DNA of 64,000 bases from an uncultured Acidimicrobiia bacterium. Lineage in GTDB: Bacteria; Acidobacteriota; Vicinamibacteria; Vicinamibacterales; UBA2999. The DNA lies in the NCBI GenBank assembly GCA_963784445.1, contig CAWARO010000001.1, positions 833,133 through 897,132 on the forward strand, written 5' to 3'. The notes under the pieces were generated by a model. The model saw only the letters and a list, made by a program, of their open reading frames with translations, ran no database searches and was not told the DNA's origin. A program made the translations under genes and the position numbers. This document shows positions 18,081 to 60,428 of the stretch, in pieces (the stretch's first letter is position 1; every line of letters starts with the position of its first letter).

Positions 18081-19454
18081 GTGATGCTAACCACGACCAT
18101 TTGGGACCAGGTCCTCAGCCGCATCGAAGGGCAGGTGGGCAAACACAGCTTTTCGACCTGGTTCAAACCGACCTCCCTGCTCGCAGACGGGGGGAGCAGC
18201 CTGCGGATCCGGGTTCCGAACCTGTTATTCGTCGAATGGCTCCCCAAGCACTACTCCGTGGTGCTGGCCGAGGCGCTCCGGGACGTGGGCCGCGGGGACG
18301 TGAAGCTGGTGTTCGTGCCGGATGCCTCTGGTGCTTCCGAGGAGGCTCGCGGGCAGTCGATCAGGGCGTCGGCCGCACCGGAATTCGAAGAGGCCGCCGA
18401 ACCCTCCCAGAGTGATGCGCCCGCCGAGCCGCAACGCGCCGGCAGCCTCATCCCCCGCTACACCTTCGACTCATTCATCGTCGGGCCGTCGAACCAGTTT
18501 GCGAATGCGGCGTGTCGCGCGGTGGCGGAAACGCCGTCGCGATCGTACAACCCGCTGTTTATTCACGGCGGCGTCGGATTGGGCAAGACGCACTTGATGC
18601 ACGCGATCGGCCACTACGTGGTGCAACATCACCCCGGCCTTGCGCTGACCTACATCTCGTCCGAGCGATTCATGAACGAGATGATTAACGCGGTGCGCTT
18701 TGATCGCATTCTCGATTTCAGGTCACGGTATCGCAGCGTTGACGTGCTGCTCGTGGATGACATTCAATTCGTTTCGGGCAAGGAAGGCACGCAGAACGAG
18801 TTTTTCCATACCTTCAACGCCCTGCATGACGCGCAGAAGCAGATCGTCATCAGCAGCGACCGTCCTCCCAATGAAATTCCTGCCCTGGAGGAGCGGTTGC
18901 GCTCGCGTTTCGAATGGGGATTGATTGCCGACATCAATCCGCCGGACATCGAGACCAAGGCCGCGATTCTGAAAAAGAAAGCCGAAGGCGAAGCGGTGCC
19001 GTTGCCCGACAACGTGGCGATGTATATGGCCAGCCGCATCAAGACCAACATCCGCGAGCTCGAGGGCTCGCTGATTCGCCTCATCGCGTATGCCTCGCTC
19101 ACGAGCAAGCCGCTCACCATCGAACTCGCACAAGACGTGTTGAAGAACGTGCTCGATCACGATGAGAAGGCGGTCACGATTGAGCAGATTCAGAAATACG
19201 TCGCCGATTACTACCAGTTGAAGCTGACCGAGCTGAAATCGCGCAACAACGCGAAGTCAGTATCGATGCCGCGCCAGGTAGCGATGTACCTGTGCAAATC
19301 GCTCACGCATGCATCGTTGCCGGAGATTGGCCGCAGTTTCGGCGGCAAACATCATTCGACGGTGATTCATTCCATCAAGAAGGTCGAAGAGATGCGGAAA
19401 AAGAGCGGCGACTTCGACAAACAGGTCAATAACCTGATGGATTCGTTCAAGTAG
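18081..19454 (+). CDS. dnaA: Chromosomal replication initiator DnaA
   Basis: 457 aa. AAA+ Walker A GGVGLGKTHLM. C-terminal DNA-binding domain (HSTVIHSIKKVE). Start is GTG at 18081 or ATG at 18084. Confidence 0.97.
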   Translation: MMLTTTIWDQVLSRIEGQVGKHSFSTWFKPTSLLADGGSSLRIRVPNLLFVEWLPKHYSVVLAEALRDVGRGDVKLVFVPDASGASEEARGQSIRASAAPEFEEAAEPSQSDAPAEPQRAGSLIPRYTFDSFIVGPSNQFANAACRAVAETPSRSYNPLFIHGGVGLGKTHLMHAIGHYVVQHHPGLALTYISSERFMNEMINAVRFDRILDFRSRYRSVDVLLVDDIQFVSGKEGTQNEFFHTFNALHDAQKQIVISSDRPPNEIPALEERLRSRFEWGLIADINPPDIETKAAILKKKAEGEAVPLPDNVAMYMASRIKTNIRELEGSLIRLIAYASLTSKPLTIELAQDVLKNVLDHDEKAVTIEQIQKYVADYYQLKLTELKSRNNAKSVSMPRQVAMYLCKSLTHASLPEIGRSFGGKHHSTVIHSIKKVEEMRKKSGDFDKQVNNLMDSFK

Positions 19455-37429: not shown

Positions 37430-37519
37430 GGAGAGGTGGCTGAGTGGTCGATAGCGGCGGTCTTGAAAACCGTTGAGCCTTCACGGGCTCCAGGGGTTCG
37501 AATCCCTTCCTCTCCGCCA
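37430..37519 (+). tRNA. tRNA-Ser (anticodon UGA), CCA encoded
   Basis: Hand-folded cloverleaf. Acceptor GGAGAGG/CCTCTCC. Anticodon stem-loop GCGGT-CTTGAAA-ACCGT. Long variable arm GAGCC-ttcacg-GGCTC. T-arm AGGGG-TTCGAAT-CCCTT. Confidence 0.9.
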
Positions 37520-46338: not shown

Positions 46339-47092
46339 TCACTTCTTCGGTATCGTCTTATCTAAATAGGCGCGAATCGTGTCGTAGGTGTGCGGCTGCA
46401 TCCAGGCATCGACGACGCGCGCGTTGAGATCGGCGAGCTGCTTCGTGCGTTGGAGGATCGGCGTGAAAAATGCCTCCTTCGTCAGCGCGAACGCGCCGGC
46501 AGGAATCGAGGCCAGCCTCTGCGCGACCTCGGTGGCACGGTCGAGGAGCATTCCGGCCGGGCACTTCTCGTCGATGAGCCCCATCGCCTTCGCCTCGTCG
46601 ATTTGCACGGTTCGTCCCGTGAACACGAGATCGCGAAGCGGGCCGTCGGCGAGACGCGCCGACATGATCTGGAGCGGCAAGGCCGGGAACGGCACACCGA
46701 CCGCGAGTTCAGGAATGCCTATGCGCCCGTTGCCCTCAACCATGATCCGATGATCGCAGGCGGCGGCCAGGATGCAGCCGCCGGCAATGGCGTGACCGTT
46801 GATCGCCGCCACCATGTGGTTTCGGGAAGGTCAACGCCGCGTGAAGAAAGGCGTCGAGGACCGGAAGAAAACGGCGCCCATATTCAGGTCCGTCATTCAC
46901 GACCCGATACAGATCGACGCCGGCGGAAAAAGCCGAACCTGAGCCGGTGACAATCACGGCCTTGATTGGCGCAGCGGCTGCGTCCGCTATTTCTCGCGTG
47001 AACGCCTCACCCAACTCGACGTCCATCGCGCTCACCTTGCCATGCGCGAGTTTCAGGACGCGGATGCCGTCGGTGTCTTTGCGCTCGATCAT
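46339..47092 (-). pseudogene. Enoyl-CoA hydratase/isomerase family, single frameshift near 46816-46820
   Basis: The N-terminal half (MIERKDTDGIRVLKLAHG...TFPKP) and the C-terminal half (MVAAINGHAIAGGC...) lie in different frames. Removing one base from ccgaaaccaCatggtg restores FPKPMVAAINGHAIAGG. Confidence 0.75.
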
Positions 47093-47176
47093 GTCCAGAA
47101 TTTTATGAGATTCGCCGTCTTCATCAAACGCGGCCGGATCGTCCCGTTTGCAGAAGTCCTGGCGGGCGCAGCTCAT

Positions 47177-47401
47177 TTGCGCTGGAGCACGGACCCCGCC
47201 ACGCCCGACATTACTGACACCGATACGAAGTTCGCCTTGCAGCCTGGCGGCGGGGTGACGGTGCTCCTCACCGAGAACGTCAGCGTGAGAGCGGCTGTTG
47301 ACTACCGGCGAATCGTGTTCACCGAAGACGACGAGTTCGAGGAGGACAATTCGCAGGTTCGGGCCATCGCCGGCGTGGTGTTCGGATGGGGCGCCCGGTA
47401 A
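47177..47401 (+). pseudogene. C-terminal remnant of an outer-membrane beta-barrel protein
   Basis: An alternating-hydrophobic pattern runs from KFALQPGGGVTVLLTENVSVRAAVDYRRIVF to RAIAGVVFGWGAR. There is no N-terminal part, and it abuts the hydratase gene. Confidence 0.35.
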
Positions 47402-47449
47402 TTGGGAGGAGATAATGGCTCCGGACGGTTCTGGCGCGAGGTGGCGGCG

Positions 47450-48128
47450 ATGACCTGTCGAAGGCGGTTGCTGATCGTCCTGTTGTGGCTCGCGATCGTT
47501 GCAGGGAGCGGCTGCGGATCGGACTCGCCGACCGCTCCTTCACCGCCAGCGTCGGACTTTGCGGCGCAGTTCGACGCATTGTGGAGCACCTTCGATCGCG
47601 AGTATTCGTACTTCGTTCACAAACGGATCGATTGGAGTGCGCTCCGCTCGGCGTATCGTCCCCGCGCGATTGAGGCGGTGGACCAGACAGGCTTCATCGC
47701 CGTCATCCGCGAGATGCTCGGCCATCTTCACGACATGCACGTCGTTCTCCGCGACCCCAGCGGGCCGATCGATGCCGACGCACGATCCGCAGACGTTTGT
47801 GAACTGGGATCGAACAGTGTGGCAGCAGTACATCGCCCGCGCAAACTGGACGCAGGGCCAGAATGACTGGGGTTACGGCGTACTCGACGGCGTACCGTAC
47901 ATCACGGTCGGCAGCTGGGGTTCGAACAGCATCCGTGCAGCCGACTTCGACGCCGCGCTCGAGCGCTTTCGCACCGCGCCGGCGATCATTCTCGACGTGC
48001 GGATGAACCCGGGTGGCAACGATTCACTGGCGTTTGAAGTCGCAGGGCGCTTCGCGCGCGCCTCCGTCGGGTTCGGGTCCGTACGATTCCGAAACGGTCC
48101 CTCGCACGGCGACTTCGGGCCGGCATAA
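47450..48128 (+). pseudogene. Peptidase S41-like lipoprotein, frameshifted (about 47740-47790) and 3'-truncated
   Basis: Frame A reads MTCRRRLLIVLLWLAIVAGSGC...HDMHVVLRDPSG. Frame B reads THDPQTFVNWD...ILDVRMNPGGNDSLAFEVAGRF. The ORF ends before the expected catalytic Ser region. Confidence 0.65.
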
Positions 48129-48138
48129 TTGGCTGTCC

Positions 48139-48855
48139 ATGGTCCCACCGAACATCGCCGCGGCGCGCCCGGCAGCGACTGTGATCGTGCTTCGCGCGGG
48201 CGATCCGTTCGAGATCCTGATGGTCCGCCGCAACGACAAGGTGGCGTTCATGGCCGGGTCGTACGTGTTTCCGGGCGGCCGCGTCGACGACGGCGATCGG
48301 CCTCCCGCAGGTGAACGGCTCCCGGCGGCGATCTTCCCCGACTTGAGCGATGTGGACGAGGCTGCCTATCGCATGGCCGCCGTGCGCGAGCTCGAGGAAG
48401 AGGCCAGCGTCTACATCACGGTGAACGACCTCTACCCGTTCGCGCATTGGGTAACGCCGGAGATCGAGACGCGCCGCTTCGACACGCGCTTCTTCCTGGC
48501 GCGCATGCCTGACGGCCAGAACGCGATTCACGATGGTGGCGAAATGACCGCGTTGGAGTGGCTGTCGCCTCGTGAAGCGATTGCGCGCTTCGAGCGGCGC
48601 GAGCTGCTGCTGCCGCCGCCGACGTGGACCTCGATCCGCCAGCTTGCCAAGCGCTCGTCGATCGACGATGTGATGCAGTGGGCGCGGACGCGGAAAATCG
48701 TGCGCGTGATGCCCGGGTTCATCAAGAACGAGAAGGAGTTCATCCTCACCTTGCCTGGGGATCCGCTGTTCCCGACCATTCCCGATTGGGAAGTGCCCGA
48801 AGAGACGCGATTTGTGTTGCAGGACGGAGCCCGGTGGCAGCCCCTGAAGGTTTGA
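48139..48855 (+). CDS. NUDIX hydrolase
   Basis: Start at MVPPNIAAARPAATVIVLR. Nudix box region GGRVDDGD...AAVRELEEEASV. Confidence 0.8.
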   Translation: MVPPNIAAARPAATVIVLRAGDPFEILMVRRNDKVAFMAGSYVFPGGRVDDGDRPPAGERLPAAIFPDLSDVDEAAYRMAAVRELEEEASVYITVNDLYPFAHWVTPEIETRRFDTRFFLARMPDGQNAIHDGGEMTALEWLSPREAIARFERRELLLPPPTWTSIRQLAKRSSIDDVMQWARTRKIVRVMPGFIKNEKEFILTLPGDPLFPTIPDWEVPEETRFVLQDGARWQPLKV

Positions 48856-49319
48856 GTGCTGCCATCGATCAAGTCATCGCGTTCTTCAACGCGAAGAGGA
48901 TGGACCTGCCCGACGGGTTCTTCGATCGCAAGACGCAGTTCGTGATCAACGGCGCGCCCTTCGAAACGCTGCTCGGCCAGTCGCCGACCGATCCGCTGAT
49001 TCTGATGCTGGCCCGCGGTCCGGCGGGCTTTCGTTTCACTGCCAAGGCGCTGCAGCATGCGCTGCCGGACGCCCGCATCGAGCGGCCTTCGACTCCGCTG
49101 ACTCAACAAGTCGAGTCAGCGTCGCTCAGGCCAGGCGGCCCGACTACGGTCTCTACAGAACTGCGGTTGTTTGGGACCTTGCGTGGCAGCGGCGAGGCGA
49201 TCGATACGGTGGTCGCCGTCACACTCAGGCTGAACGCTGCCGGGAGCATCGAGGTGGCCGAAGCCCAAGTCGAGGCGGCCGCGCTCGAAAAGATTCGTCA
49301 GGCGCGTTTGCAACCTTAG
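48852..49319 (+). CDS. Hypothetical protein (TTG start overlapping the NUDIX stop)
   Basis: (M)SAAIDQVIAFFNAKRMDLPDGFF... of about 155 aa. No family recognised. Confidence 0.4.
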   Translation: MSAAIDQVIAFFNAKRMDLPDGFFDRKTQFVINGAPFETLLGQSPTDPLILMLARGPAGFRFTAKALQHALPDARIERPSTPLTQQVESASLRPGGPTTVSTELRLFGTLRGSGEAIDTVVAVTLRLNAAGSIEVAEAQVEAAALEKIRQARLQP

Positions 49320-49380
49320 GCGGGACTTCCGCCTTCGCCCTCAAGGGCTACGGCGGACAAGAAGTCCCGTCTCTACGTGC
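49317..49380. repeat. REP-like nested hairpin (GGCGGGACTTC ... GAAGTCCCGTC plus CTCTACGTGC flank)
   Basis: Outer 11-bp stem with an inner hairpin GCCCTCAAGGGC. Shares the flank motif with 26689 and 63779. Confidence 0.65.
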
Positions 49381-49426
49381 TGGTCGAATTGGACGCGGTC
49401 GTTCGTCATTCGGTCAGGAGACTTCC

Positions 49427-49951
49427 ATGCATCTGTTCCTTGCTCTCGTCCTGACCACCGCATTCCTTCCCTTCGACTCGGTTGACTCGACTCATCGAGT
49501 TAACCTCGCTCAGGGCGGGCAAACGGGCGCCGATCCGCTGTTATCCCGCCTGGCCGGCCAATGGACCGGGACGGGGACGGTGCTCAATCAACCCTCGAAA
49601 ATCCAGATGGCGTGGACCTGGGAACTGGGCGGCCGCTTCATTCGGCTGACGTTCCGCAATGAAATGGGCACCGCGCCGAAAGTCAACGTGTTCGAAGGCC
49701 ATGCCTATTACCGGCCGGTGGCCGACGGTCAGTATCGCGGCATGTGGTTCGACAACTCGGGCATGTTCCGGCCACTCGACGCGAAACGCGACGGCGACGC
49801 GCTCGTGTCGAAGTGGGGCACGCCCGATACCGAAGAAGGCGAGACGACTTACCGGCTCCGCGAAGACGGCACGATGGAAGTCGTCGATCGCGTGAAAGGG
49901 AAGGACGGCACCTGGCGCGACTTCGGCCGCGCCACGTATCGGCGATTGTAA
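49427..49951 (+). CDS. Hypothetical secreted protein (DUF1579-like, tentative)
   Basis: 174 aa. N-terminal hydrophobic segment. Contains LAGQWTGTGTV and FEGHAYYRP. Confidence 0.45.
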   Translation: MHLFLALVLTTAFLPFDSVDSTHRVNLAQGGQTGADPLLSRLAGQWTGTGTVLNQPSKIQMAWTWELGGRFIRLTFRNEMGTAPKVNVFEGHAYYRPVADGQYRGMWFDNSGMFRPLDAKRDGDALVSKWGTPDTEEGETTYRLREDGTMEVVDRVKGKDGTWRDFGRATYRRL

Positions 49952-49973
49952 AGGTGCCAGACCCCTTTACAAT
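49945..49973. terminator. Hairpin ATTGTAAAGG-tgccagacc-CCTTTACAAT (copy 1)
   Basis: 10-bp perfect stem overlapping the stop codon of the 49427 gene. A near-identical copy lies at 50047-50074. Confidence 0.45.
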
Positions 49974-50046
49974 TGGCGAACCGAAAATCCGTGGCGTTTA
50001 CTGGCGGAAGCAGCGTCTGGTTGGCAGAAATTGCAGCAAAACGCCA

Positions 50047-50074
50047 TGTAAAGGTGCCAGACCCTTTTACAATT
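50047..50074. terminator. Hairpin TGTAAAGG-tgccagac-CCTTTTACA (copy 2)
   Basis: Same sequence as copy 1 with one extra T. Overlaps the stop codon of the convergent selenoprotein gene. Confidence 0.45.
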
Positions 50075-50717
50075 CAGGCAGCTCCAATACAGCTCTCACG
50101 TATTCCTGCTCCGGCAAGCCGCCCATGATCTCAATCGTCTCGTTGACGACCGTCTTCGGCACGCCGGTCACTCGGTACTTCCGGCTGAGATCCATGAATT
50201 CGGTGGCTTCAATCGCGTCGGCGGTGATGTTCGGGTTGGCCGCAGCCATCTTGTGTGCGAGGACGACCGCCCTCGGGCAGTGCGGTCAAGTTGGCGTGGA
50301 AAACACCTGGATGTGGGTGGGTTTGTTGACCGCCTGAATCCACTTCATCGTCTCGGGCTCGAGCTCGATCTTGCCCGTGCCGGCCGTGATGATGGCTTCG
50401 ACCAGGCCGACGAACTCGTATCCGGTCGGCGCGCCGAACATACGCATGCGCGTATCGACGTCGTCGCTCAGGATCACGATGGCCGGCGCCTTGTCGATCT
50501 TGTACTTCGCCTTGTCTTCCGTATCGAGGATGAAGTTCTTGTCGACAACGGTGATCTTGTTGTTCAGCGCGGCCAGCTCACCGAGGATTTGTTTGGTGAT
50601 GGTACCGGTTTCAGAGCCGCCAAGGGCTTGCGTGAACAGAACGACCTGGACTGGATTGGTGATGACAGAAAGGTGCTGCTTGAGTGTTGCTTCGTCTTGC
50701 GGAGAAAGAAGGGCCAT
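50067..50717 (-). CDS. Two-unit thioredoxin-fold protein disulfide oxidoreductase (PDO / AhpF-N-terminal-like), selenocysteine-containing; UGA at 50286-50288
   Basis: ORFs 50286-50717 and 50067-50249 are in the same frame, separated by one TGA. The joined protein reads ...THIQVFSTPT-U-PHCPRAVVLAHKMAAANPNITADAIEATEFMDLSRKYRVTGVPKTVVN... . This parallels the archaeal PDO motif VFVTPTCPYCPLAVRMAHKFAIEN, recalled from memory. Confidence 0.85.
50258..50275 (-). promoter_or_regulatory. Candidate bacterial SECIS for the UPHC oxidoreductase
   Basis: The mRNA reads CGAGGG-CGGUCG-UCCUCG starting 10 nt after the UGA. The apical loop contains GGUC. Confidence 0.4.
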
Positions 50718-50765
50718 ATCTGATTATGACGGGATCGGGGATCGGGGATCGGGGATCCGGAAAAT

Positions 50766-51254
50766 TCAGAACTTGAAGAGATCGTCGAAGGCTTTCTTGG
50801 CCCCGCTGGGCTCTTTTGGATTGTTGTTCTGGCTCACGGCCGTGGTGGTTTCCCGCTCCCAGGTGGTGCGGCCCGAGAAGTGCGGGCAGTCGTTCGCCAC
50901 GTCCTTGGGCGACACACGAGCCGTCAGCTTCACTGCACATTCGAAGGTGGTGCCCGGGTCGAAGTTCACGCACTGGACGCACGATCGCAAGTCGACCTGG
51001 CACTTGGGACACTTGCTGCGCGACATGATTTCGGCATCGACGATGGTGCCGCAGCGTGAGCAGCGCGCCACCTGGCGCGAGCCCATCATGCGAGGGTTGC
51101 GGGCGCCTTCGGAGGAGATGCGCCGAGCGCCGGCGGGCGCGCCTGGTTCGCGCTCCGGCTTGGCGCCACCGCTGTCGGGACGCGGCCCCGACGGTTTGCG
51201 ATCGCGGTTGTCGTCCTGGTAGCCGCGTTGACGATATTTTCGGTCGTCGCTCAT
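50766..51254 (-). CDS. Hypothetical Cys-rich zinc-ribbon protein with a basic disordered N-terminus
   Basis: 162 aa. Contains CSRCGT...CPKCQ...CVQC...C...C. No family recognised. Confidence 0.5.
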   Translation of the reverse strand: MSDDRKYRQRGYQDDNRDRKPSGPRPDSGGAKPEREPGAPAGARRISSEGARNPRMMGSRQVARCSRCGTIVDAEIMSRSKCPKCQVDLRSCVQCVNFDPGTTFECAVKLTARVSPKDVANDCPHFSGRTTWERETTTAVSQNNNPKEPSGAKKAFDDLFKF

Positions 51255-51261
51255 TTGATCC

Positions 51262-51312
51262 CCCGCCTACAGGCGGGTGATCCCTCGCCTAAAGGCGGGG
51301 GCTATAGGTGAG
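51262..51312. repeat. Tandem small hairpins CCCGCCtacaGGCGGG / CCTCGCCtaaaGGCGGGG
   Basis: REP-like variant between two minus-strand genes. Confidence 0.55.
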
Positions 51313-51318
51313 GCGAAG

Positions 51319-52923
51319 TTAGGCTTCATAGACTGCTTTACCACCGACAACGGTCCGCACAATCTTGATATTCTTGATCTCGTCTGGATTCACGTCGTGC
51401 GGATCCTTCTCGAGCATCGTGAAGTCCGCGAGCTTGCCCGGGGCGATCGAGCCCTTCACGTTTTCCTCGTGCGAGGCGTAGGCGCCGTTGATGGTCGCGA
51501 CCATCAGCGCCTGGTCAACCGTGATTCGCTGCTGTGGTCCCCACACGTTACCACCGAAATCCTTGCGCGTGACCATGCTTTGGATGGCCATCAGCGGCTC
51601 GAACGGCCCCGGGCCGTAGTCGGACGCGCCGGCGACGCGAATGCCGTTGTCGATGAACGACTTGTGCGCGAACATCCAGTTCATCTTGTCTTGGCCGTAG
51701 AACTTCCACTTCTCGCCGTGATAGTGCGCGTAGGTCCAGAACGGCGTCGGGATTACCCCTAGGGCCTTGATGCGTGCGAGCAATTCCGGATTGACGAGCG
51801 AGCAGTGCTCGATGCGGTTGCGCGGGTCCGGCCGCGGCCACTGCTTCTGCACGCGCTCGTAGGCCTTGAGCACCATGTCGATGGTGGTGTCGCCGTTGGC
51901 GTGGATGGCCACGCGCATGTTGTGACGCCACGCATCTTCGACGGCGTCGTCGACTTCCTTCTGCGTCATGGTGAGGATGCCGTAATCCTTGGTGCCGACA
52001 TACGGCGTGCTCATGCGCATGGTGCGCTCGGAGGCCGATCCGTCCGCCGCGAACTTGACGCCGACGCACTTCAACCACTCGTCGCCGAAGCCATAGGTGA
52101 TGCCGGCGGCCTTGAAGCCACTGAACGCGTCGGTGCCGCGAACGAGGAAGCCGGCGCGGTGCCGCAGCTCGCCGGCGTTGCGTGAGTCCTGGTAGGCGAG
52201 GATGCTGTCGCGGCCGGCGCCGGCGTCGTGAACGGAGGTGAGGCCCGCCGCGGTCAGCAGCTTCGAGATGTGCGCCTTGCCCTGCCGGCCACGCTCGCGT
52301 TGCTGCTCGGGCGTGAACCGTTCGCGGGTGCCGACTTTCGAAAACACGCCGCGCGCGAGCTCGGCCACGCGGCCGGTGAGCTCGCCGCTTTCGTCGCGGA
52401 AGAAGCGGCCGTGGTCGGGATCGGGTGTGGCCTTGGTGACGCCCGCGAGATCGAACGCCTTGGTGTTGTACCAGCTGGTGTGGCCGCCACGATGGTTCAC
52501 CGCGATGGGGTGATCGCGCGACACCTCGTCGAGGTCCTTGCGCGTCAGCGTGACGTCAAGCTTGGTGTCGTCGAACATGATCGCTTCGACCCACTGGCCC
52601 GGCGGCGTCTTGTCGACGCGCGCCTTCAGGTTGGCCTGCAGCTCGCGCACGCGCGGCACTTGCGCATTCACGCTGAACAACTCACCGACGCCGCTGACGT
52701 GACAGTGGCAATCGATGAAGCCCGGGGTGATCGTCGCGCCGGCCGCATCGATCTGGCGCGTCTGCGCGTTGGCGAGATTGCGAATGTCGGCGCTCGATCC
52801 CACGGCGATGAACCGGCCGTTTCTGACGGCGAACGCTTCCGCGCGCGCCATCGACGGCTCGCCCGTCAACACCCGCGCGTTGATCACGATCAGATCGGCG
52901 GCTACACCCGGTCCGGCGCCCAC
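51319..52923 (-). CDS. Amidohydrolase family (Amidohydro_3-like) metal-dependent hydrolase; the true N-terminus is probably disrupted
   Basis: 534 aa. Metal-binding motif ITPGFIDCHCHV. An in-frame Tat-like signal lies upstream with no in-frame start (see findings). Confidence 0.85.
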   Translation of the reverse strand: MGAGPGVAADLIVINARVLTGEPSMARAEAFAVRNGRFIAVGSSADIRNLANAQTRQIDAAGATITPGFIDCHCHVSGVGELFSVNAQVPRVRELQANLKARVDKTPPGQWVEAIMFDDTKLDVTLTRKDLDEVSRDHPIAVNHRGGHTSWYNTKAFDLAGVTKATPDPDHGRFFRDESGELTGRVAELARGVFSKVGTRERFTPEQQRERGRQGKAHISKLLTAAGLTSVHDAGAGRDSILAYQDSRNAGELRHRAGFLVRGTDAFSGFKAAGITYGFGDEWLKCVGVKFAADGSASERTMRMSTPYVGTKDYGILTMTQKEVDDAVEDAWRHNMRVAIHANGDTTIDMVLKAYERVQKQWPRPDPRNRIEHCSLVNPELLARIKALGVIPTPFWTYAHYHGEKWKFYGQDKMNWMFAHKSFIDNGIRVAGASDYGPGPFEPLMAIQSMVTRKDFGGNVWGPQQRITVDQALMVATINGAYASHEENVKGSIAPGKLADFTMLEKDPHDVNPDEIKNIKIVRTVVGGKAVYEA

Positions 52924-53129
52924 CGACGGTTGCGCGCTCGCCAGCGTTTCGAGACCGCCCGAGGCAAATCCCGTTGCGCCGGCCAGCGCCGCGCCGAAAC
53001 CAAGGAATTCTTTTCTGGAGAGTTTTCCATAGCGGGGGGAACTATACGCTAAACAGGGGTCGAGGTCCTGAGGACTTGGGACCCTGAGGGCTTACTGATT
53101 CAAGCCCTCAAGCCCAAGCCCTCAAGCCT

Positions 53130-56100
53130 TTAGAAGCGGCCGACCACCGTCAACTGGAACGCTCGCGCCGGCTGCTGATTGACCATCAACAGGAAGTTCG
53201 AGCTCCAGCTCTGATAGGCGCTGTTGTAGCTGTATTGCGTGTAGTCCCCACCATTGAGAAGGTTGAAGACGTTCCCCGCAACCTCGAGCTGGTAACGCTG
53301 ATACTGCAGGGTCTTGCCGATCTTCAGGCCGACCGTCGTGATCAGCGGCGCCTGCGACCTGCCCCTCGCCGCGGTCGCTGAAGACATAGCGATTGCGGGT
53401 CGCCAGCGGATTCGGGGCTGTTGATCCGTTCGCCAACGTGAACGTCGCGGGTCCGTACTTGAGGACGTCGGGATCGTTGGCCGCCAGCTGATACAACGGC
53501 GCTCCCGACCACGGCCCGGCCTGGAACGTGGCGCTGGCCGCGACGTTGATGCGCCAGGGAGCCTGCCACACGCCGCCGAGGTTGCCGCGGTACTTCATCC
53601 ACGTCGGACCGTAGCTCAACGCGTTGCCCGTGTCGGGCAGCGAGTTGCCGTCGTTGTTGCCGCGCGGCATGTAGAGATTGGCGTCATTCGCGAAGTGGTT
53701 CGGCTGCACGAAGCGCGCCGGGTCGGTCGGGTTCCACGTGCCGTCGATCTTGTGCCACTGCCGCGTGAAGCCGCCAATCAGCTGGAAGCCCCTCGACATG
53801 TTCTTCGTCGCTGTCACTTCAATAGCCTGGTATTTCAGCTGGCTCCAGGTGTTGTTCGTCTGCTGCTGGACCATGTCCCTGGTTCGGATCGACTCTGCCG
53901 AAACCTCCGAAGGGGAGACCCGGTGCGTCGGGATAGATGCCGTTGATGTCGATGTTCGCCCACATGTGCTTGTAGGCGCGGTTGATGTAGCCCACGTCCA
54001 GGCCAATCTGCCAGCCGAACTGCCGGCGGAATCCGACGATGAACTCGTCGAGGTACGGCTGGTGCAGGCCGGGCGCGATCTGCTGGCCGGCCAGGGCGGT
54101 CGCTCGATGCCGGCAGCGAGCTGCGTGGTCTCGAACGTGCCGTTGAGGTCGTTGTCGTACTCGCGGCGGAACGACACCGTATCATCCGCGCCGAAAATGG
54201 TGACGCCGTCGCGGCCCATGACCTGTTCTCCCAGGCGGCCGTAACTGGCGCGCAGCACGTTCTTGGCATCGTTGGTCAGGAGGTAGGTGGCGCCAATCCG
54301 TGGCTGCACCGACCAGGATTTCTGCCGCGTGATGTCTCTCACTTCGTCAACCCGCTTGACGTAGTCGAACCTGATCCCGACGTTCGCCGTCAACCGATCG
54401 TTCGGCCTCCAACTGTCCTGGAGGTAGAAGGCGTAGTTGCTGTCGCGGGCCTGGCGCGTTTGCAGGCTGATCGGATTGGCGTAGTCACGCCGATAGGGCC
54501 GCGTGCCTCGCGATGGGTCGTTGACGTCGACCACCGTCTGGAACTCCCGGAAGAAGCCGTCGTTCGTGTACAGCGTGACCTGATCGTAGATGTTCTGCGG
54601 TTCCAGGAAGAACCCCGTTCCAAACTCGTGGTTGCCGGCCCAGCCGGCCTTGTAATACGTCAGGTCACCGCGAATCAGGGAGAGCGAGGCCGGGCACGTT
54701 GGTGCGAGTCGCGTTGTTGCCGCCCTCGAGGATCAGCGAGTTGCCGGTGATGAAGCCGCTCGAGATGCGCGTGCCGTCGTAAATGTTGATGTTCGGTCCC
54801 TGGGCGTTGAACCCGAACGCCTCGTAGGTGTCGTTGTCGTTGCCGCGCTTGTTGTTGTAGCCGGCCGAGAACGTCGTCGTCATTCTGTCGCCCCACGTCG
54901 ACGTGAGCTTGGCGTTGTAGACGTTCCCGCCGTTCGAATAGACGTTGATCGGATCGAAGTAGGTACTGCCAGTTGCTCTGGCCGTGCGTGCGGTCGCGCT
55001 GGAAGAACCCCGACAACTCGTGGGCGGCGCCGAGCACGCGACGTGACCTTCACGTACGGCTGGTAGCCCTTGATCTCCTGGGGGAACAACTCAGCGTTGG
55101 GATAGTAGCTCTTGATGTCGTTGACGTTCTTCGAGTTGCGGCTGATCTGGGTCTCGACCGCCGACTTGCGGAACGACGTGAAGAACCAGACGCGATCCCT
55201 CATGATCGGCCCGCCGAACGAGCCGTCGAACTGGCCGATCTTGGCTTGCACCGGCGTGCCGCCGGTGGTGGTGCATTCCTGGTTGGGGCAGGTTGTATGC
55301 TGGCCGAGCGGCGTCCCAGAAAGGTTGAACACGGTCTTGTGGTGGGTGTTGTTGCTGACCCAGTTGAGCGGCTGGTATGCGTACCCGGCGGTCCCCCTGA
55401 ACGTGTTGCCGCCGCTCTTGGTGATGACGTTGATCGCCAGGCCGGTGCCCATCGGCGTCGACGCGTCGGACCCGCCGGTCTTGACCTGGGTGTCCTGGAT
55501 CATGTCCGACCCCATCTGCACGTAGGTGAGCTGGAAGTCGTTGTAGTTGCCCGCCTGCATGCCTTCGAGCTGCACGACGTGGGCGAAGTGTTCCGTGGCG
55601 TGCCCGAAGTACACCGATCGCCCGCTGCCGTCATCGAACGGTCGCGAATGGACGCCGGGCGTCTGCTCGAGGAAGTCGGTCCAGTTCTTCCGGGCGGCAA
55701 GCGGCATCTGTTTCTGGAACTCGCCGTCGATGTTCAGGATGTTGCCGGGCTTGCTGACCTCGAGCATGGGCGAATCGCCCGTGACGGTGATGGTTTCGGC
55801 CACGGCGCCGATCTCGAGGACGATGTCGACTTGAAAGTTCACGCCGCCGCGCAGCACGATTCCCGTGCGTTGGTAGTTCCGGAACCCCTGGAGCTCCGCG
55901 GTGACGGCGTAGTCGCCGGGAGGCAGGTTGATCAGACGGTAGTAGCCGGTCTCGTCGCTGACGCCGGTTGCCGGCGTGATCATGTTGGGGCTGGTTGCGG
56001 TGACCGTGACACCAGGCAGCACGCCACCCTGGTTGTCTTTGACGTAGCCTCGCAGGCTGCTGCCCGTGGGCTGCGCCTCCGCCAAGTACACGCCCGCACT

Positions 56101-56145
56101 CAATACAACGAGCAGGCAAATCCCGAATCGCAGAACACGTCCCAT
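53130..56145 (-). pseudogene. TonB-dependent receptor with an N-terminal CarboxypepD_reg domain; at least 6 frameshifts
   Basis: Signal MGRVLRFGICLLVVLSAGVYLAEAQ. Contains GVTVTATSPN...ETGYYRLINLPPGDY. C-terminal beta-barrel ends ...AFQLTVVGRF. Homologous segments tile five ORF-track pieces in different frames. Shifts lie near 55040, 54960, 54690, 54105, 53878 and 53355. Confidence 0.8.
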
Positions 56146-56277
56146 GGCGATTCCTCCCTGCCGACAGAACAAAGTCACGAGCCCGAGGGGCCGCGGTTAA
56201 CGACGACGTGGAAACTCCGACGACGAAGCGAGATCTTACGAGGCGGATGATACTGCGATACCGAAGCTCGGAGAAAG

Positions 56278-58253
56278 CTACTTCGGCAGGGCTTTCAGGA
56301 GGGCCGTGGCGCGCGCCTCGGTGGGATCGAGCCGAATCGCTTCCAGCGCTTCTCGTCCTGGCCTCTGAAAATCGGCCCAGTTCGGCGTACACCGCAGCCA
56401 GGTTGAGGTGCGCGCTGGCGCTCCCCGGGTCGAGGCGGGAGGCACGTTCGAGATAGGGACGAGCGGTGGGAGGATCGCCGTTCAGAAAAATTGCCACGCC
56501 CAGCTTCTCGTGCGCCTCGGCCCGATCCGGCGCCCGCTGAACCGCGATCTGCAGCCACCGGATTGCTTCGGGCAAGGCCTGTTGCTCGAGCGCCAGCGTC
56601 CCGAAGTCGAGCGCAGTTTCAGCCGACGTTCCCGTCACCGAGTCTTCAATTCCCGACAGCTGTTTGACCGCCTCGCCTGCGCGACCGGCCCTGGTCAGCG
56701 CTTCTCCGAGCGAGAGCCGGATGGCCGGTTCCGGGCCGTCAATGGCGATCGCCTCAGTCAGTAGGGCAACCGCTTCATCCGGCCGCCCCGCATCGAGCAG
56801 CGCCTGCCCGACTCTGAAACGAAGAACCCCAGGGTGACTATGATCGTGCGAGATCTGTTCGACGTACCGGCGCGCCTCGTCGAACGACCCTCGCTCGACG
56901 AGCCACACCGCTTGACGCGTTTGCTCGCCTCCAATCCCGTTGTCGAGTCCGAGATTCCAGAACACCACGAGCGAAGTCATTGCGATGGCACCGGCCGGAC
57001 GCAACGGCAGGCTGAAGCGGCGGGCTCGCACCAGGTCGTAACACCGAACAAGCACGGCGCCGGCCGCAGCGCACAGCGGCACGAACAGCGGCATGCGGTA
57101 GCGATCCGTCACGAAGAAGAGGACCACCGATGCTCCGTACAAAGGGACGAACATCGCCCACACCCAATACCCGTGGCGGTTCGTGCGCAGCGATCGGCCA
57201 GCACAGGCCGACCAGGCCAAGCGGCAGAAGCAGCCAGGGACCGATGGCCAGAACGCGAAGGAATGAGAAGGACTCGCGCGCGTAGAACGCGTAACTGTAG
57301 TTGAGTGGCACGTCGACGCGGTTGAGCAGAATCCTGATCTTGCGTATCCACAACCTGAGCGCATCGGCCGGATGTCCGGCCATCCAGTCGAATGCCCGCC
57401 ACGCAAAGTAGCTGGAAACCTCGCCGGGAGAAAGGCGCCGGCCCGTACTCGATTCGGCCACGCGAGTAGAATCGCCGGCCTGTCCAGCGATCGATGGCGT
57501 GATGCCCGGCACAGGCGTGTAGGTCCCGTCGGCGCGATCGTGGTTGCCGATGTAGAGATTCAACCCGCCGTGCGAGGCAATCAAGACGACGTCCCCGGAC
57601 ACCGCATAATTGCGTGCCGCGCTGGCTGCAAGGACGGCGAGCAGAGCAGTGACCAGCACCGCGCCGCGTTTGATCCGGCCGTCCCGCCACTCGCTGACGA
57701 ACACAACGGCGGCGGCCGCCACAGCAAACACGAGCGCGTTGGGGCGATTGAGAGCGAGCAGTCCAAGTGACGCTCCGGCTGCGGCAAAGGCGCCCGTGCC
57801 ACCACCTGCCATCGTTCGCGTGAGCGCGTAGAGAACACTCGACACGAGGAACGGATCCAATGCCGATTGAAGAATCAGGACTTCGTTGAACGCAAAGATG
57901 CCGGTCAGAATCGCGAGCCCGGCGGCGACCAGAGCCGCCCGTTCGCCAAACCAATGCCGGGTGGTGGCGAAGAGCAACCCCACCGCCGCGGCCCCGAGAG
58001 CGATCTGGACCAGTTGCGCCGCGAGCAACGATCCTCCGGCCGCGAATACGGCCGCGAGGAAGTAGACATACAGCGGCGACACGAAGAACGCCCCAATGGG
58101 CGCCAACAACCCTTCCGTTGCGACTCGCTGGCTCAGGGTGACGTAGTAAGCGGTGTCGAGTTCACCATGTGGCTGCAGCAGTTGGTGGTTCCACAGCTGC
58201 ACGAGGACGACCAACTTGACGGCGAAGGCCGCTGCCACGACCACTGCGACCAT
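56278..58253 (-). pseudogene. GT39/ArnT-PMT-like glycosyltransferase with C-terminal TPR repeats; 2 frameshifts
   Basis: The multi-TM N-terminal part is in the frame of ORF 56838-58514. The TPR part (AEAHEKLGVAIF..., SASAHLNLAAVYAELGRFSEA) is in the frame of ORF 55631-57406. The last 26 codons (REALEAIRLDPTEARATALLKALPK) are in the third frame. Shifts lie near 57200 and 56370. An alternative GTG start is at 58304. Confidence 0.75.
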
Positions 58254-58375
58254 TCGCCACGAGCGGTCCGAAATCGTCTTGAAAGTTGACGGTTTACGGT
58301 TCACAGTTGACAGTTGAGTTTGCCAGTTCGGCAGTTTGAAGTTTAGGTTGCCAGTTTTCAAGCCCGGAGCGAAAC

Positions 58376-60428
58376 ATGAAATTGCGCATTCGCTTGTCGG
58401 TTTCCGCCCTGCTATGCCTGTTGGTTTTGGCGCCTGCCACCGCGCAGGAAAAGCGCCCCCGCACGTTTGTTGACGCCTTGGAGCAGCCGGTCCTGGCCGA
58501 TCCGCAGCTTTCACCGGGCGGCAAGCAGATCGCGTTCGTCATTGATCGCGCGGACTGGAAGGCGAACCGCCGGATCGGTCACATCTTCCGGATCAACACC
58601 GACGGCACCAACCAGGTGCAACTGACATTCGGCGAGCGCGGTGAATCGAGCCCGCGCTGGTCGCCGGACGGCAAGTCGATTGCGTTCACCGCGCGCCGCG
58701 ATCCCGACAGCGTCAACCAGATCTACGTGCTGCACGCCGACGGTGGCGAGGCCCGCAAGATCACGAGCCACGGCACGGCCACCGGCAACATCACGTGGGC
58801 GCCGGACGGCAAGTCGATCTATTTCACCGCCACCGACGCCAAGTCCGCCGAAGAACGCGAGCGCGATCGCGTGCAGGACGATGTCTTTGCGTTCGAAGAG
58901 AACAACTTCAAGCAGCGCCACTTGTGGACCACGGATCTCGAGGGCAAGACGAAACGGGTCACGGAAGGCAACTGGTCGGTCGGCAGTTACGAGCTGAGCG
59001 ACGACGGCACGCGCATCGCGATGCATCGCACGCCGACACCGCTCCTGGGATCGGGCGAGCGCGGCGAGGTGTGGGTCATGGATGCGTCAGGCCAGAACGC
59101 GAAACAACTCACGACCAACGGTGTGTCCGAGGCCAATGCGTCGCTTTCTCCCGATGGCGCCCAGGTTCTGTTCACGGCGGATTCGAGCGCGCAATTCGAG
59201 CATTACTACAACGACAAGCTGTTCCTCGTGCCTGCCGCGGGTGGCGCGGCGCGGGTGCTGCTGCCGGCAGACTGTCAGCTACGAAGTCGAGAACGCGGCG
59301 TGGAGCAAGGACGGCAAGAGCATCTACTTCACCGCCAACATGGGCGTGCACAACGAGATCATGAAAGTGGACGTGGCCACGCGGCAGGTGACGCAGCTCT
59401 CGAAGGGCGAGCACAACCTGCAAGGCTGGTCGGTCTCCGAAGACCACGGCCTGCACGTGTTCCTCCGCAACACCGGGCCGCGACCGAGCGAGGTCTATGT
59501 GATGCCGGCCGGTGGCGGCGAACCGACGCGCGTGAGCGCGGTGTTCACCGACGACCTCGCCAACTTCAAGACCGCGCGCATCGAGCGCATCACATGGAAG
59601 GGCCAGGACGGCGTCACCGTTGAAGGGCTCCTGACATACCCGATCGACTACAAGGCGGGGCAGAAGTATCCGCTGATCGTGGCCACGCACGGCGGGCCGG
59701 CGGCCTCGGATCGATTTGGCTTCGCCACCGAGACGCAGGTCTACGCCGCGAAGGGCTACGCGGTGCTTCGGCCGAACTACCGCGGCAGCACCGGCTACGG
59801 CGATGCGTTCCTGCGCGACATGGTGAACGGCTACTTCAAGCAGGCGCACCTGGACGTGATGGCCGGCACCGACGCCGTGATCGCGATGGGCGTGGCCGAT
59901 CCCGACAAGTTGATCAAGATGGGGTGGAGCGCCGGCGGCCACATGACCAACAAGATCATCACGATCACCGATCGCTTCAAGGCGGCCAGCAGCGGCGCCG
60001 GTGCGGCGAACTGGATCTCGATGTATGCGCAGAGCGACATCCGCGAGTACCGCACGCCGTGGTTTGGCGGCACACCGTGGCAGGCCAATGCGCCGATCGA
60101 TCTGTATTGGAATCACTCGCCACTCAAGGACGTCTCCAAGGTGAAGACCCCGACAATCTTCCTCGTCGGCGAACAGGATCCGCGCGTGCCGCTGCCGCAG
60201 TCGATCGAGATGTTTCGCGCGTTGAAGTCGAACGGCGTGCCGACGCACTTGTACGTCGCGCCGCGGGAGGGCCACGGATGGACGGAACTGCGTCACCGGC
60301 TCTTCAAGCTCCAGATCGAGATGGAGTGGTTCGAAAAGTACATCCACAACCGCGCTTACACGTGGGAGCGCGCGCCGGGCGACGAGAAAAAGGAAACGCC
60401 CAAGCCGACGACGAGCGCGCCACAGTGA
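58376..60428 (+). pseudogene. S9 family serine peptidase (prolyl oligopeptidase/DPP-like), single frameshift near 59265-59280
   Basis: The beta-propeller N-terminal half (SPRWSPDGKSIAF repeats) is in one frame. SYEVENAAWSKDGKSIYF...GWSAGGHMT (nucleophile elbow) is in another. Confidence 0.8.

What the first reader, a model, noticed from the sequence alone, without database searches (positions are those of the whole stretch)
46339..60428. A 14-kb tract in which six genes carry about 12 frame disruptions while 46 kb of upstream core genes carry none
- The affected genes are an enoyl-CoA hydratase (1 shift), an S41 peptidase (1 shift plus 3' truncation), an amidohydrolase (signal peptide out of frame), a TonB-dependent receptor (at least 6), a GT39/TPR glycosyltransferase (2) and an S9 peptidase (1).
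- A beta-barrel OMP stub is also present.
- Small genes between them (NUDIX, two hypotheticals, the Sec oxidoreductase, a Zn-ribbon protein) are intact.
- The clustering is clearly non-random relative to the rest of the window.
- One explanation is real relaxed selection on an accessory or island-like segment. The truncated S41 and the OMP stub favour genuine decay.
- The other is a locally low-quality assembly stretch. The density, about 0.9 indels per kb, would leave 0.5-0.7 kb genes unhit about half the time.
- Most shift sites are not in homopolymers. The exception is the amidohydrolase site, an A4/T4 run.
Basis: seen in the sequence. Interest (0 to 1): 0.6.

Follow-up and report, generated by a model that had tools for sequence, protein, structure and literature searches.

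The report
Frameshift cluster most likely assembly errors
Thirteen single-base indels break six genes in a 12.5-kb stretch of a soil acidobacterial (Vicinamibacterales) contig; they are really in the sequence, but they look like consensus errors of the assembly rather than decaying genes, so the finding is ordinary.

Summary
Between 46816 and 59272 the window carries 12 one-base insertions and 1 one-base deletion that no relative shares. They hit:
- an enoyl-CoA hydratase (1)
- an S41 peptidase remnant (1)
- an amidohydrolase, in codon 2 (the deletion)
- a TonB-dependent receptor (7)
- a PMT_2/TPR glycosyltransferase (2)
- an S9 peptidase (1)

The other 51 kb shows none; it includes the dnaA/gyrB/gyrA origin region.

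Deleting the 12 extra bases restores full-length proteins with no internal stop. These are 78-95% identical to intact orthologues in more than 20 independent, mostly short-read, contigs.

On the window's own branch the broken genes show no relaxed selection. The receptor has N/S = 15/46, against 69/69, 69/102 and 56/84 in intact sisters.

Real pseudogenes do not give a spectrum of 12 insertions to 1 deletion, all 1 nt, mostly outside homopolymers, with no nonsense mutations.

The source contig is 1.2 Mb, which suggests long reads. A known Nanopore MAG relative (L008) has a similar +1/-1 pair.

Best reading (about 0.78): consensus errors at structurally variable loci. The outer-membrane-protein (OMP) stub and truncated S41 are a separate remnant left by two deletions of about 470 and 411 nt, and are probably real.

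Only read pile-ups or PCR can settle this.

The parts
46342..47092 (-). Enoyl-CoA hydratase gene with one extra base at 46816/46817 (codon 92, CC[A][C]). Removing it gives a 250-aa protein with no stops.
   Evidence: (ECH_1, positions 5-244 of 251). Orthologues are intact in L003, L005, L006, L047, L082 and L135.
47118..47398 (+). 3' remnant of a beta-barrel outer-membrane protein gene, matching residues 104-196 of the 196-aa L135 orthologue. The 5' part and the upstream spacer (about 470 nt) are deleted.
47450..48128 (+). 5' remnant of an S41 (Tricorn_C1 + Peptidase_S41) lipoprotein gene, about 225 of 342 codons. It carries one extra base at 47762 (G run). The last roughly 355 nt of the gene plus the spacer (411 nt in all) are deleted. 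The stop codon comes from the native NUDIX upstream spacer.
48139..51254 (.). Intact stretch with no window-specific indel. It holds NUDIX (48139-48852 +), a hypothetical (48846-49316 +), a DUF1579-like gene (49427-49948 +), the Sec thioredoxin-like gene (50070-50717 -, TGA at 50286-50288) and the Zn-ribbon gene (50769-51254 -).
51322..53030 (-). Amidohydrolase gene. One base is missing directly after the ATG (ATG at 53030-53028; deletion within 53023-53027), which puts the start codon out of frame with an otherwise intact 568-585-aa reading frame that includes a signal peptide.
   Evidence: 94.9% aa identity to L136.
53133..56145 (-). TonB-dependent receptor (CarboxypepD_reg + beta-barrel) with seven extra single bases at 55034, 54962, 54690, 54117, 54100, 53875 and 53355. 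Removing them gives exactly 3006 nt (1002 codons) with no stop.
56278..58253 (-). PMT_2 (GT39-like) + TPR membrane glycosyltransferase with extra single bases at 57194 and 56355. Corrected, it is 657 aa with no stop.
58376..60428 (+). S9 prolyl-oligopeptidase-type peptidase with one extra base at 59272/59273 (GA[C][T]). Corrected, it is 683 aa and 93% identical to the intact L136 protein.

Best explanation
The twelve one-base insertions and the one-base deletion are errors of the consensus sequence of this assembly. They are not mutations carried by the organism.

The window comes from a 1.2-Mb contig of an uncultured Vicinamibacterales bacterium, which almost certainly means a long-read metagenome assembly. 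The errors fall in two patches, 46.8-47.8 kb and 53.0-59.3 kb. Both lie on loci that differ structurally between related strains:
- the OMP-S41 indel
- the invertible or replaceable TBDR-GT39 block
- divergent TBDR alleles

Inference: at such loci, reads from co-occurring strains disagree or depth drops, and the polisher emits an extra base. Often this looks as if both alleles of a synonymous third-position difference were kept side by side.

The genes themselves (ECH, amidohydrolase, TBDR, glycosyltransferase, S9) are most likely intact and functional in the cell.

Separately, the OMP stub and the truncated S41 are most likely a real remnant of a dispensable two-gene module, cut down by two deletions.

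Shown: the lesions, their uniqueness to this assembly, their spectrum, and the lack of any decay signal. Inferred: the sequencing platform and the consensus mechanism.
For: **1. Unique to this assembly.**
- Every relative has an intact, single-frame orthologue.
- The ten full-length short-read TBDR matches listed span 3003-3015 nt; five of them, including the two closest full-length ones, are exactly 3006 nt.
- The 120 best TBDR homologues are about 1000 aa.

**2. Clean restoration.** Deleting just the extra bases restores ECH, TBDR, GT39/TPR and S9 at full length, and the S41 fragment as one open frame. None has an internal stop.

**3. No relaxed selection on the window branch** (N/S counts).
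- TBDR: 15/46, against 69/69, 69/102 and 56/84 in intact sisters.
- S9: 41/48, against 40/53.
- GT39: 26/20, against 48/53 (a small sample).
- Controls: amidohydrolase 10/21 against 9/19; ActC 36/54 against 29/69.
- Seven neutral indels in one gene should come with tens of neutral substitutions at N/S near 3, plus several stops.

**4. Spectrum.**
- 12 insertions to 1 deletion, all 1 nt. P = 0.0017 even at 1:1.
- Curated real bacterial pseudogenes show 396 deletions to 300 insertions, of many sizes (PMC6054270).
- At most 3 of the 12 insertions copy a neighbouring base.

**5. Codon position.** Ten of 12 insertions sit where either of two adjacent bases can be dropped to give synonymous third-position variants. 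The null expectation is 0.52 per site, p = 0.027. That would fit collapsed strain differences, but the signal is only suggestive.

**6. Platform clues.**
- The source contig is 1,199,902 bp.
- L008, a Microflora Danica Nanopore MAG (PMC12313526), carries its own +1/-1 pair in the orthologous glycosyltransferase. No short-read contig does.
- Long-read assemblers collapse strains, and residual indels then cause frameshifts (PMC8302730).

**7. Location.** Both patches coincide with structurally polymorphic loci.
Against: - No reads are available, so depth and allele support are unknown.
- The hits are not uniform in the tract. A 5.3-kb stretch of intact genes has none (p = 0.004), and several hits pile up in one gene. 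That is also what real pseudogenes beside functional genes would look like.
- The tract does hold at least one apparently real decayed locus (OMP/S41).
- The region is truly flexible among relatives.
- Typical Nanopore consensus errors are homopolymer deletions, not non-homopolymer insertions. The error mechanism is therefore not established.
- The third-position signal is weak (p = 0.027).
Confidence: 0.78

Rival explanations
1. Real, very recent pseudogenisation. The flexible segment came under relaxed selection, and five or six genes were each knocked out by single-base indels too recently for substitutions to accumulate.
For: - The region is variable among relatives, and genes here are lost repeatedly: OMP-S41 and the M55 peptidase are missing in several relatives, and TBDR-GT39-S9 is missing in L006.
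- The OMP/S41 remnant shows true decay by deletion.
- Hits are confined to particular genes, with 5.3 kb of untouched genes between them.
- Multiple hits in one gene fit a gene that is already dead.
Against: - There is no excess of non-synonymous change and no stop in any corrected gene.
- Seven indels against at most a handful of possibly neutral substitutions in TBDR is far from any known bacterial mutation spectrum.
- The 12:1 insertion bias, all 1 nt, contrasts with the deletion-biased, size-mixed spectrum of real pseudogenes.
- ECH and the amidohydrolase are conserved in every relative examined.
- None of the lesions is shared with any relative.
Confidence: 0.15
2. A localised burst of insertion mutagenesis. 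For example, insertion-prone repair synthesis tied to the recombination or inversion events at these loci could have produced many +1 events at once without a matching load of substitutions.
For: - The insertion-only spectrum and the lack of substitutions would both be explained.
- The patches coincide with rearrangement-prone loci.
Against: - I know of no such insertion-specific process in bacteria.
- It would leave five conserved genes dead at the same time, which selection should remove quickly.
- The same pattern is explained more simply by consensus error.
Confidence: 0.04
3. Programmed +1 recoding. The genes are expressed through ribosomal frameshifting or transcript editing at the insertion sites.
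For: All shifts go in the same direction (+1), and the downstream frames stay open and conserved.
Against: - No orthologue has a shift at any of the sites.
- No site has a stop or hungry codon, a shared slippery motif or a homopolymer.
- Seven shifts in one gene have no precedent in bacteria.
Confidence: 0.01

Closest known systems
Residual indel errors in long-read (meta)genome assemblies that split genes
   Same: - Single-base indels are unique to one assembly.
- Frames are restored by removing them, and the genes are otherwise perfectly conserved.
- The same kind of lesion is seen in the Nanopore MAG L008.
- The literature notes strain collapse and indel-caused frameshifts (PMC8302730; PMC12313526).
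   Different: - The errors here are almost all insertions and mostly lie outside homopolymers. From my own knowledge, the commonest Nanopore consensus error is a homopolymer deletion.
- The clustering at about 1 per kb, next to 51 kb of clean sequence, is unusually sharp.
- The platform of the source assembly is not known.
Pseudogene tracts in bacteria undergoing gene loss (for example the pseudogene sets analysed in PMC6054270)
   Same: - Frame disruptions relative to intact orthologues.
- Several hits per gene.
- Location in a variable part of the chromosome.
- One locus (OMP/S41) with true deletion remnants.
   Different: - No rise in non-synonymous change, and no nonsense mutations.
- No deletion bias and no spread of indel sizes.
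- The organism is a large-genome, free-living soil acidobacterium.
Programmed +1 ribosomal frameshifting (prfB type)
   Same: The shifts are in the +1 direction, with an open and conserved downstream frame.
   Different: - The shifts are not conserved in orthologues.
- There is no stop or rare codon at the site and no upstream Shine-Dalgarno-like stimulator.
- There are many sites per gene.
Genomic island or flexible region
   Same: Gene content between ECH and the ActC-like gene differs among related Vicinamibacterales. It includes an inversion and allele replacement.
   Different: - No integrase and no flanking tRNA.
- No long repeats at the borders.
- No composition shift.

Membership tests
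Assembly or consensus indel artefact | The lesions are single-base indels absent from all independent assemblies of related genomes | tested here: met
   All 13 events are specific to the window. More than 20 related contigs are intact.
Assembly or consensus indel artefact | Removing the indels restores full-length, conserved reading frames with no other damage | tested here: met
   There are 0 internal stops in five corrected genes, which are 78-95% identical (aa) to relatives.
Assembly or consensus indel artefact | Reads show low depth or mixed support at the sites | not testable with these tools
   No reads are available. The same strain was not found in any other public assembly; the best TBDR match is 89-90%.
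Assembly or consensus indel artefact | The assembly was made from error-prone or strain-mixed long reads | tested here: inconclusive
   The source contig is 1,199,902 bp from an uncultured lineage, which suggests long reads. The record itself was not shown.
Pseudogenes decaying under relaxed selection | Frame disruption relative to intact orthologues | tested here: met
Pseudogenes decaying under relaxed selection | Excess non-synonymous change or stops on the lineage | tested here: not met
   TBDR N/S is 15/46 against 0.67-1.0 in intact sisters, and S9 equals its sister; no stops.
Pseudogenes decaying under relaxed selection | Mixed lesion spectrum with more deletions than insertions and a range of sizes | tested here: not met
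   There are 12 insertions and 1 deletion, all 1 nt, against 396 deletions to 300 insertions of many sizes in real pseudogenes. The feature is met only at OMP/S41, with two deletions of about 470 and 411 nt.
Programmed +1 frameshift genes | The shift site is conserved in orthologues | tested here: not met
Programmed +1 frameshift genes | A slow-to-decode codon or slippery motif at the site | tested here: not met
   The contexts share no motif and have no stop in the zero frame at the site.
Mobile genomic island | An integrase or recombinase, a tRNA or direct-repeat border, and deviant composition | tested here: not met
   The only tRNA is tRNA-Ser at 37430. GC is 0.60-0.66 throughout.
Mobile genomic island | Variable presence among close relatives | tested here: met

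The most novel reading that the evidence does not exclude
The insertions are real and arose together. A local, insertion-specific mutational burst, tied to rearrangement or recombination at structurally unstable loci, inactivated five conserved genes almost at once and left no substitution trace. That would be a mutational process not described in bacteria.
Probability: 0.04. Interest if true: 0.55.

Novelty: not a real feature. Interest (0 to 1): 0.1.

Why it matters
If the frameshifts are artefacts, the practical points are these:
- Six genes of this genome should be annotated as intact, not as pseudogenes.
- Pseudogene counts or 'genome decay' calls from such long-read MAGs need read-level checks, especially at loci that vary structurally between strains.

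If the frameshifts were real, the tract would be an unusual snapshot of simultaneous gene death with an insertion-only spectrum. Nothing here requires that reading.

The real biology in the tract is ordinary: a flexible chromosomal stretch about 28 kb from dnaA, with module loss, an inversion and allele replacement.

Tried and rejected
- **Same strain elsewhere.** I scanned GTDB representative genomes, JGI metagenome contigs, exact-protein look-ups and the 5.8-billion protein set. The nearest TBDR is 89-90% identical, so no independent copy of the sites exists in what I could reach.
- **Singleton test.** Counting singletons at otherwise invariant sites as a decay test was too biased, and one gene was out of phase. 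I replaced it with the three-taxon branch counts.
- **Inversion borders.** I looked for inverted repeats or mobile-element signatures at the borders of the TBDR-GT39 inversion and of the tract. I found none.
- **Shared motif.** I looked for a shared sequence motif at the insertion sites, such as a methylation or slippery motif. I found none.
- **Composition.** There is no composition shift over the tract.
- **'Both alleles kept' idea.** I tested by simulation whether insertions sit where both alleles of a synonymous difference could have been kept. The result is only p = 0.027. I keep it as a suggestion, not a result.
- **Recoding.** Rejected, because no orthologue has a shift.


Full report
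**What the window is**

GC content is 0.60-0.66 throughout, with no shift over the tract.

The first 46 kb is the replication-origin neighbourhood of a bacterial chromosome. It holds ATP synthase genes, mnmG, mnmE, yidC, dnaA (18081-19454), dnaN, gyrB, gyrA, uvrD and glmS. All ten large ORFs scanned there have full-length Pfam matches. Long ORFs tile the stretch with gaps of at most 296 nt.

The nearest relatives are Vicinamibacterales (Acidobacteriota) MAGs and soil metagenome contigs. Proteins of the window occur on a single 1,199,902-bp contig held by NCBI and ENA.

**Checking the observation**

GC3 frame plots show frame switches inside uninterrupted coding signal.

I aligned each gene's DNA with 4-12 relatives and listed the indels present in the window and in no relative (S41; amidohydrolase N-terminus):
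- +1 at 46816 (ECH)
- +1 at 47762 (S41)
- -1 at about 53026 (amidohydrolase, directly after its ATG)
- +1 at 53355, 53875, 54100, 54117, 54690, 54962 and 55034 (TonB-dependent receptor)
- +1 at 56355 and 57194 (PMT_2/TPR glycosyltransferase)
- +1 at 59272/3 (S9)

Control genes show no frame-breaking indel: NUDIX, the Zn-ribbon and thioredoxin genes, and the two ActC-region genes at 60.5-63.8 kb.

The clustering is far beyond chance. The probability is about 6e-10 that all 13 fall in one given span of this size.

**What the broken genes look like once the extra bases are removed**

ECH (250 aa), the receptor (1002 aa; exactly 3006 nt, like five of the ten full-length short-read orthologues including the closest ones, the rest spanning 3003-3015 nt), the glycosyltransferase (657 aa) and S9 (683 aa) become full-length with no internal stop. 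They are 78-95% identical to single-frame, intact orthologues in more than 20 independent contigs, nearly all short-read assemblies. The 120 best receptor homologues in the large protein collection are about 1000 aa.

**Is there any sign of decay?**

I counted changes assigned to the window's own branch by three-taxon parsimony.

| Gene | Window N/S | Intact sister N/S |
|---|---|---|
| TonB-dependent receptor | 15/46 | 69/69, 69/102, 56/84 |
| S9 | 41/48 | 40/53 |
| Glycosyltransferase | 26/20 | 48/53 |
| Amidohydrolase (control) | 10/21 | 9/19 |
| ActC-like (control) | 36/54 | 29/69 |

The glycosyltransferase counts are small and not clearly different from its sister. For the receptor, which carries seven frameshifts, the result speaks against relaxed selection.

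A gene that had drifted long enough to collect seven indels should carry tens of neutral substitutions at N/S near 3, and several stops. The expectation that indels are much rarer than substitutions is my own knowledge.

**The lesion spectrum**

There are twelve insertions and one deletion, all of one base. Even with equal rates, P is 0.0017.

A curated set of 151 real pseudogenes from high-GC Burkholderia has 396 deletions to 300 insertions, spread over many sizes (PMC6054270). At most three of the insertions here duplicate a neighbouring base, and none lies in a run of four or more. No motif is shared among the sites.

**A possible signature of the error mechanism**

At 10 of 12 insertion sites there are two adjacent bases, either of which can be removed to give synonymous codons that differ at the third position. 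Examples are CC[A][C], GT[C][G], GG[A][C] and GA[C][T].

Random insertions meet this criterion 52% of the time, giving p = 0.027. This would fit a consensus that kept both alleles of a strain difference. It is only suggestive, and I could not show that any polisher behaves this way.

**Platform clues**

The record and its reads were not available to me. A 1.2-Mb contig from an uncultured soil acidobacterium points to long reads.

L008 is collinear with the window here. It is a Microflora Danica MAG, and that catalogue is Nanopore-based; its authors note sequencing-error effects in lower-coverage MAGs (PMC12313526). L008 carries its own +1/-1 pair in the orthologous glycosyltransferase. No short-read contig has any frameshift in these genes.

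Long-read assemblers collapse co-occurring strains into one consensus, and residual indels then cause frameshifts (PMC8302730).

**Where the errors fall**

They form two patches. One is 46816-47762. The other is 53026-59272. A clean 5.3-kb stretch lies between them (p = 0.004 under a uniform rate).

Both patches sit on loci that differ structurally among relatives:
- The OMP-S41 module is intact in L135 (ECH, OMP of 196 aa, S41 of 342 aa, NUDIX). It is wholly absent in L003, L005, L006, L047 and L082.
- The TBDR-glycosyltransferase block (53141-58247) is inverted in L082, L083 and L089, and collinear in L008. It is absent, together with S9, in L006. In L136 a 57%-identical receptor allele replaces it and there is no glycosyltransferase.

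In a metagenome, such loci are where reads from related strains conflict. That link is inference. The same non-uniformity would also be expected if only dead genes collect hits, and this is the main point in favour of the rival reading.

**The OMP stub and the truncated S41 are a different matter**

The window keeps only the part that corresponds to L135 9671-10674, at 87.7% identity. It lacks about 470 nt on the left (spacer plus OMP 5' part) and 411 nt on the right (S41 3' part plus spacer). The junctions are clean, and the S41 stop codon is supplied by the native NUDIX upstream spacer.

Two separate deletions that flank a retained piece are not a typical consensus error. I read this as a real remnant of a dispensable module that five relatives have lost completely. 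Its existence does not vouch for the single-base lesions elsewhere.

**Verdict**

| Reading | Confidence |
|---|---|
| Consensus errors of the assembly, on a truly flexible chromosomal stretch that also holds one real gene remnant | about 0.78 |
| Real but very recent pseudogenes | about 0.15 |
| A real insertion-specific mutational burst | about 0.04 |
| Recoding | about 0.01 |

The recoding reading has no conserved shift site and no recoding signal.

Only read pile-ups, re-polishing or PCR can settle this. Interest is low. The useful outcome is a caution for annotation and for pseudogene counting in long-read MAGs.

Noticed in passing
window 50070-50717 (-), TGA at 50286-50288: A thioredoxin-fold gene (Thioredoxin_3) has an in-frame TGA in a T-U-P-H-C motif. 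The TGA and the following 'CCGAGGGCGGTCGTCCTCGC' stretch are the same, apart from one or two substitutions in L007, in the window and nine relatives. That fits a real selenocysteine codon with its downstream hairpin. Gene callers split it into two genes in relatives (L135).
   Followed up: partly
window 53141-58247 versus L082 6613-11679, L083 171-5229, L089 1239-6057: The TonB-receptor plus glycosyltransferase block is inverted in three short-read relatives but collinear in L008. It is absent, with S9, in L006. In L136 a 57%-identical receptor allele replaces it, without the glycosyltransferase. No long inverted repeats were found at the borders.
   Followed up: partly
window 49947-49974 and 50047-50074: Two copies (96% identical) of a 28-nt palindromic element, TGTAAAGGTGCCAGACCCCTTTACAATT, lie 100 nt apart. 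They sit exactly where L135 and L047 carry about 1 kb more DNA, called as a Peptidase_M55 gene in L135. The window and L003 lack that gene.
   Followed up: no
window 53085-53130 (also L003 about 150-190): Short tandem GGGCTTG/AGGGCTTGA-like repeats lie just downstream of the TonB-receptor stop codon. A similar array is present at the same place in L003.
   Followed up: no
L008 2838-4965: The Nanopore MAG relative has its own +1 (G to GG) and -1 (loss of a third-position base) pair, about 630 nt apart, in the orthologous glycosyltransferase. Its receptor and S9 genes are intact.
   Followed up: yes
window 51260-51317: A 58-nt insertion relative to L136 lies between the Zn-ribbon gene and the amidohydrolase. 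It holds two GC-rich hairpins (CCCGCCTACAGGCGGG and CCTCGCCTAAAGGCGGGG), which look like terminators or REP-like elements.
   Followed up: no
window 1-32000: The window contains the replication-origin gene neighbourhood: atp operon, mnmG, mnmE, yidC, dnaA at 18081-19454, dnaN, gyrB, gyrA, uvrD and glmS. The frameshift tract therefore begins about 27 kb from dnaA. oriC itself was not located.
   Followed up: no
window 49086-49136 and 49470-49520: A 51-nt direct repeat (78% identical) links the two adjacent hypothetical genes (48846-49316 and 49427-49948). They share an N-terminal 'FDS.DST.RV..AQ' motif, which suggests a tandem duplication.
   Followed up: no
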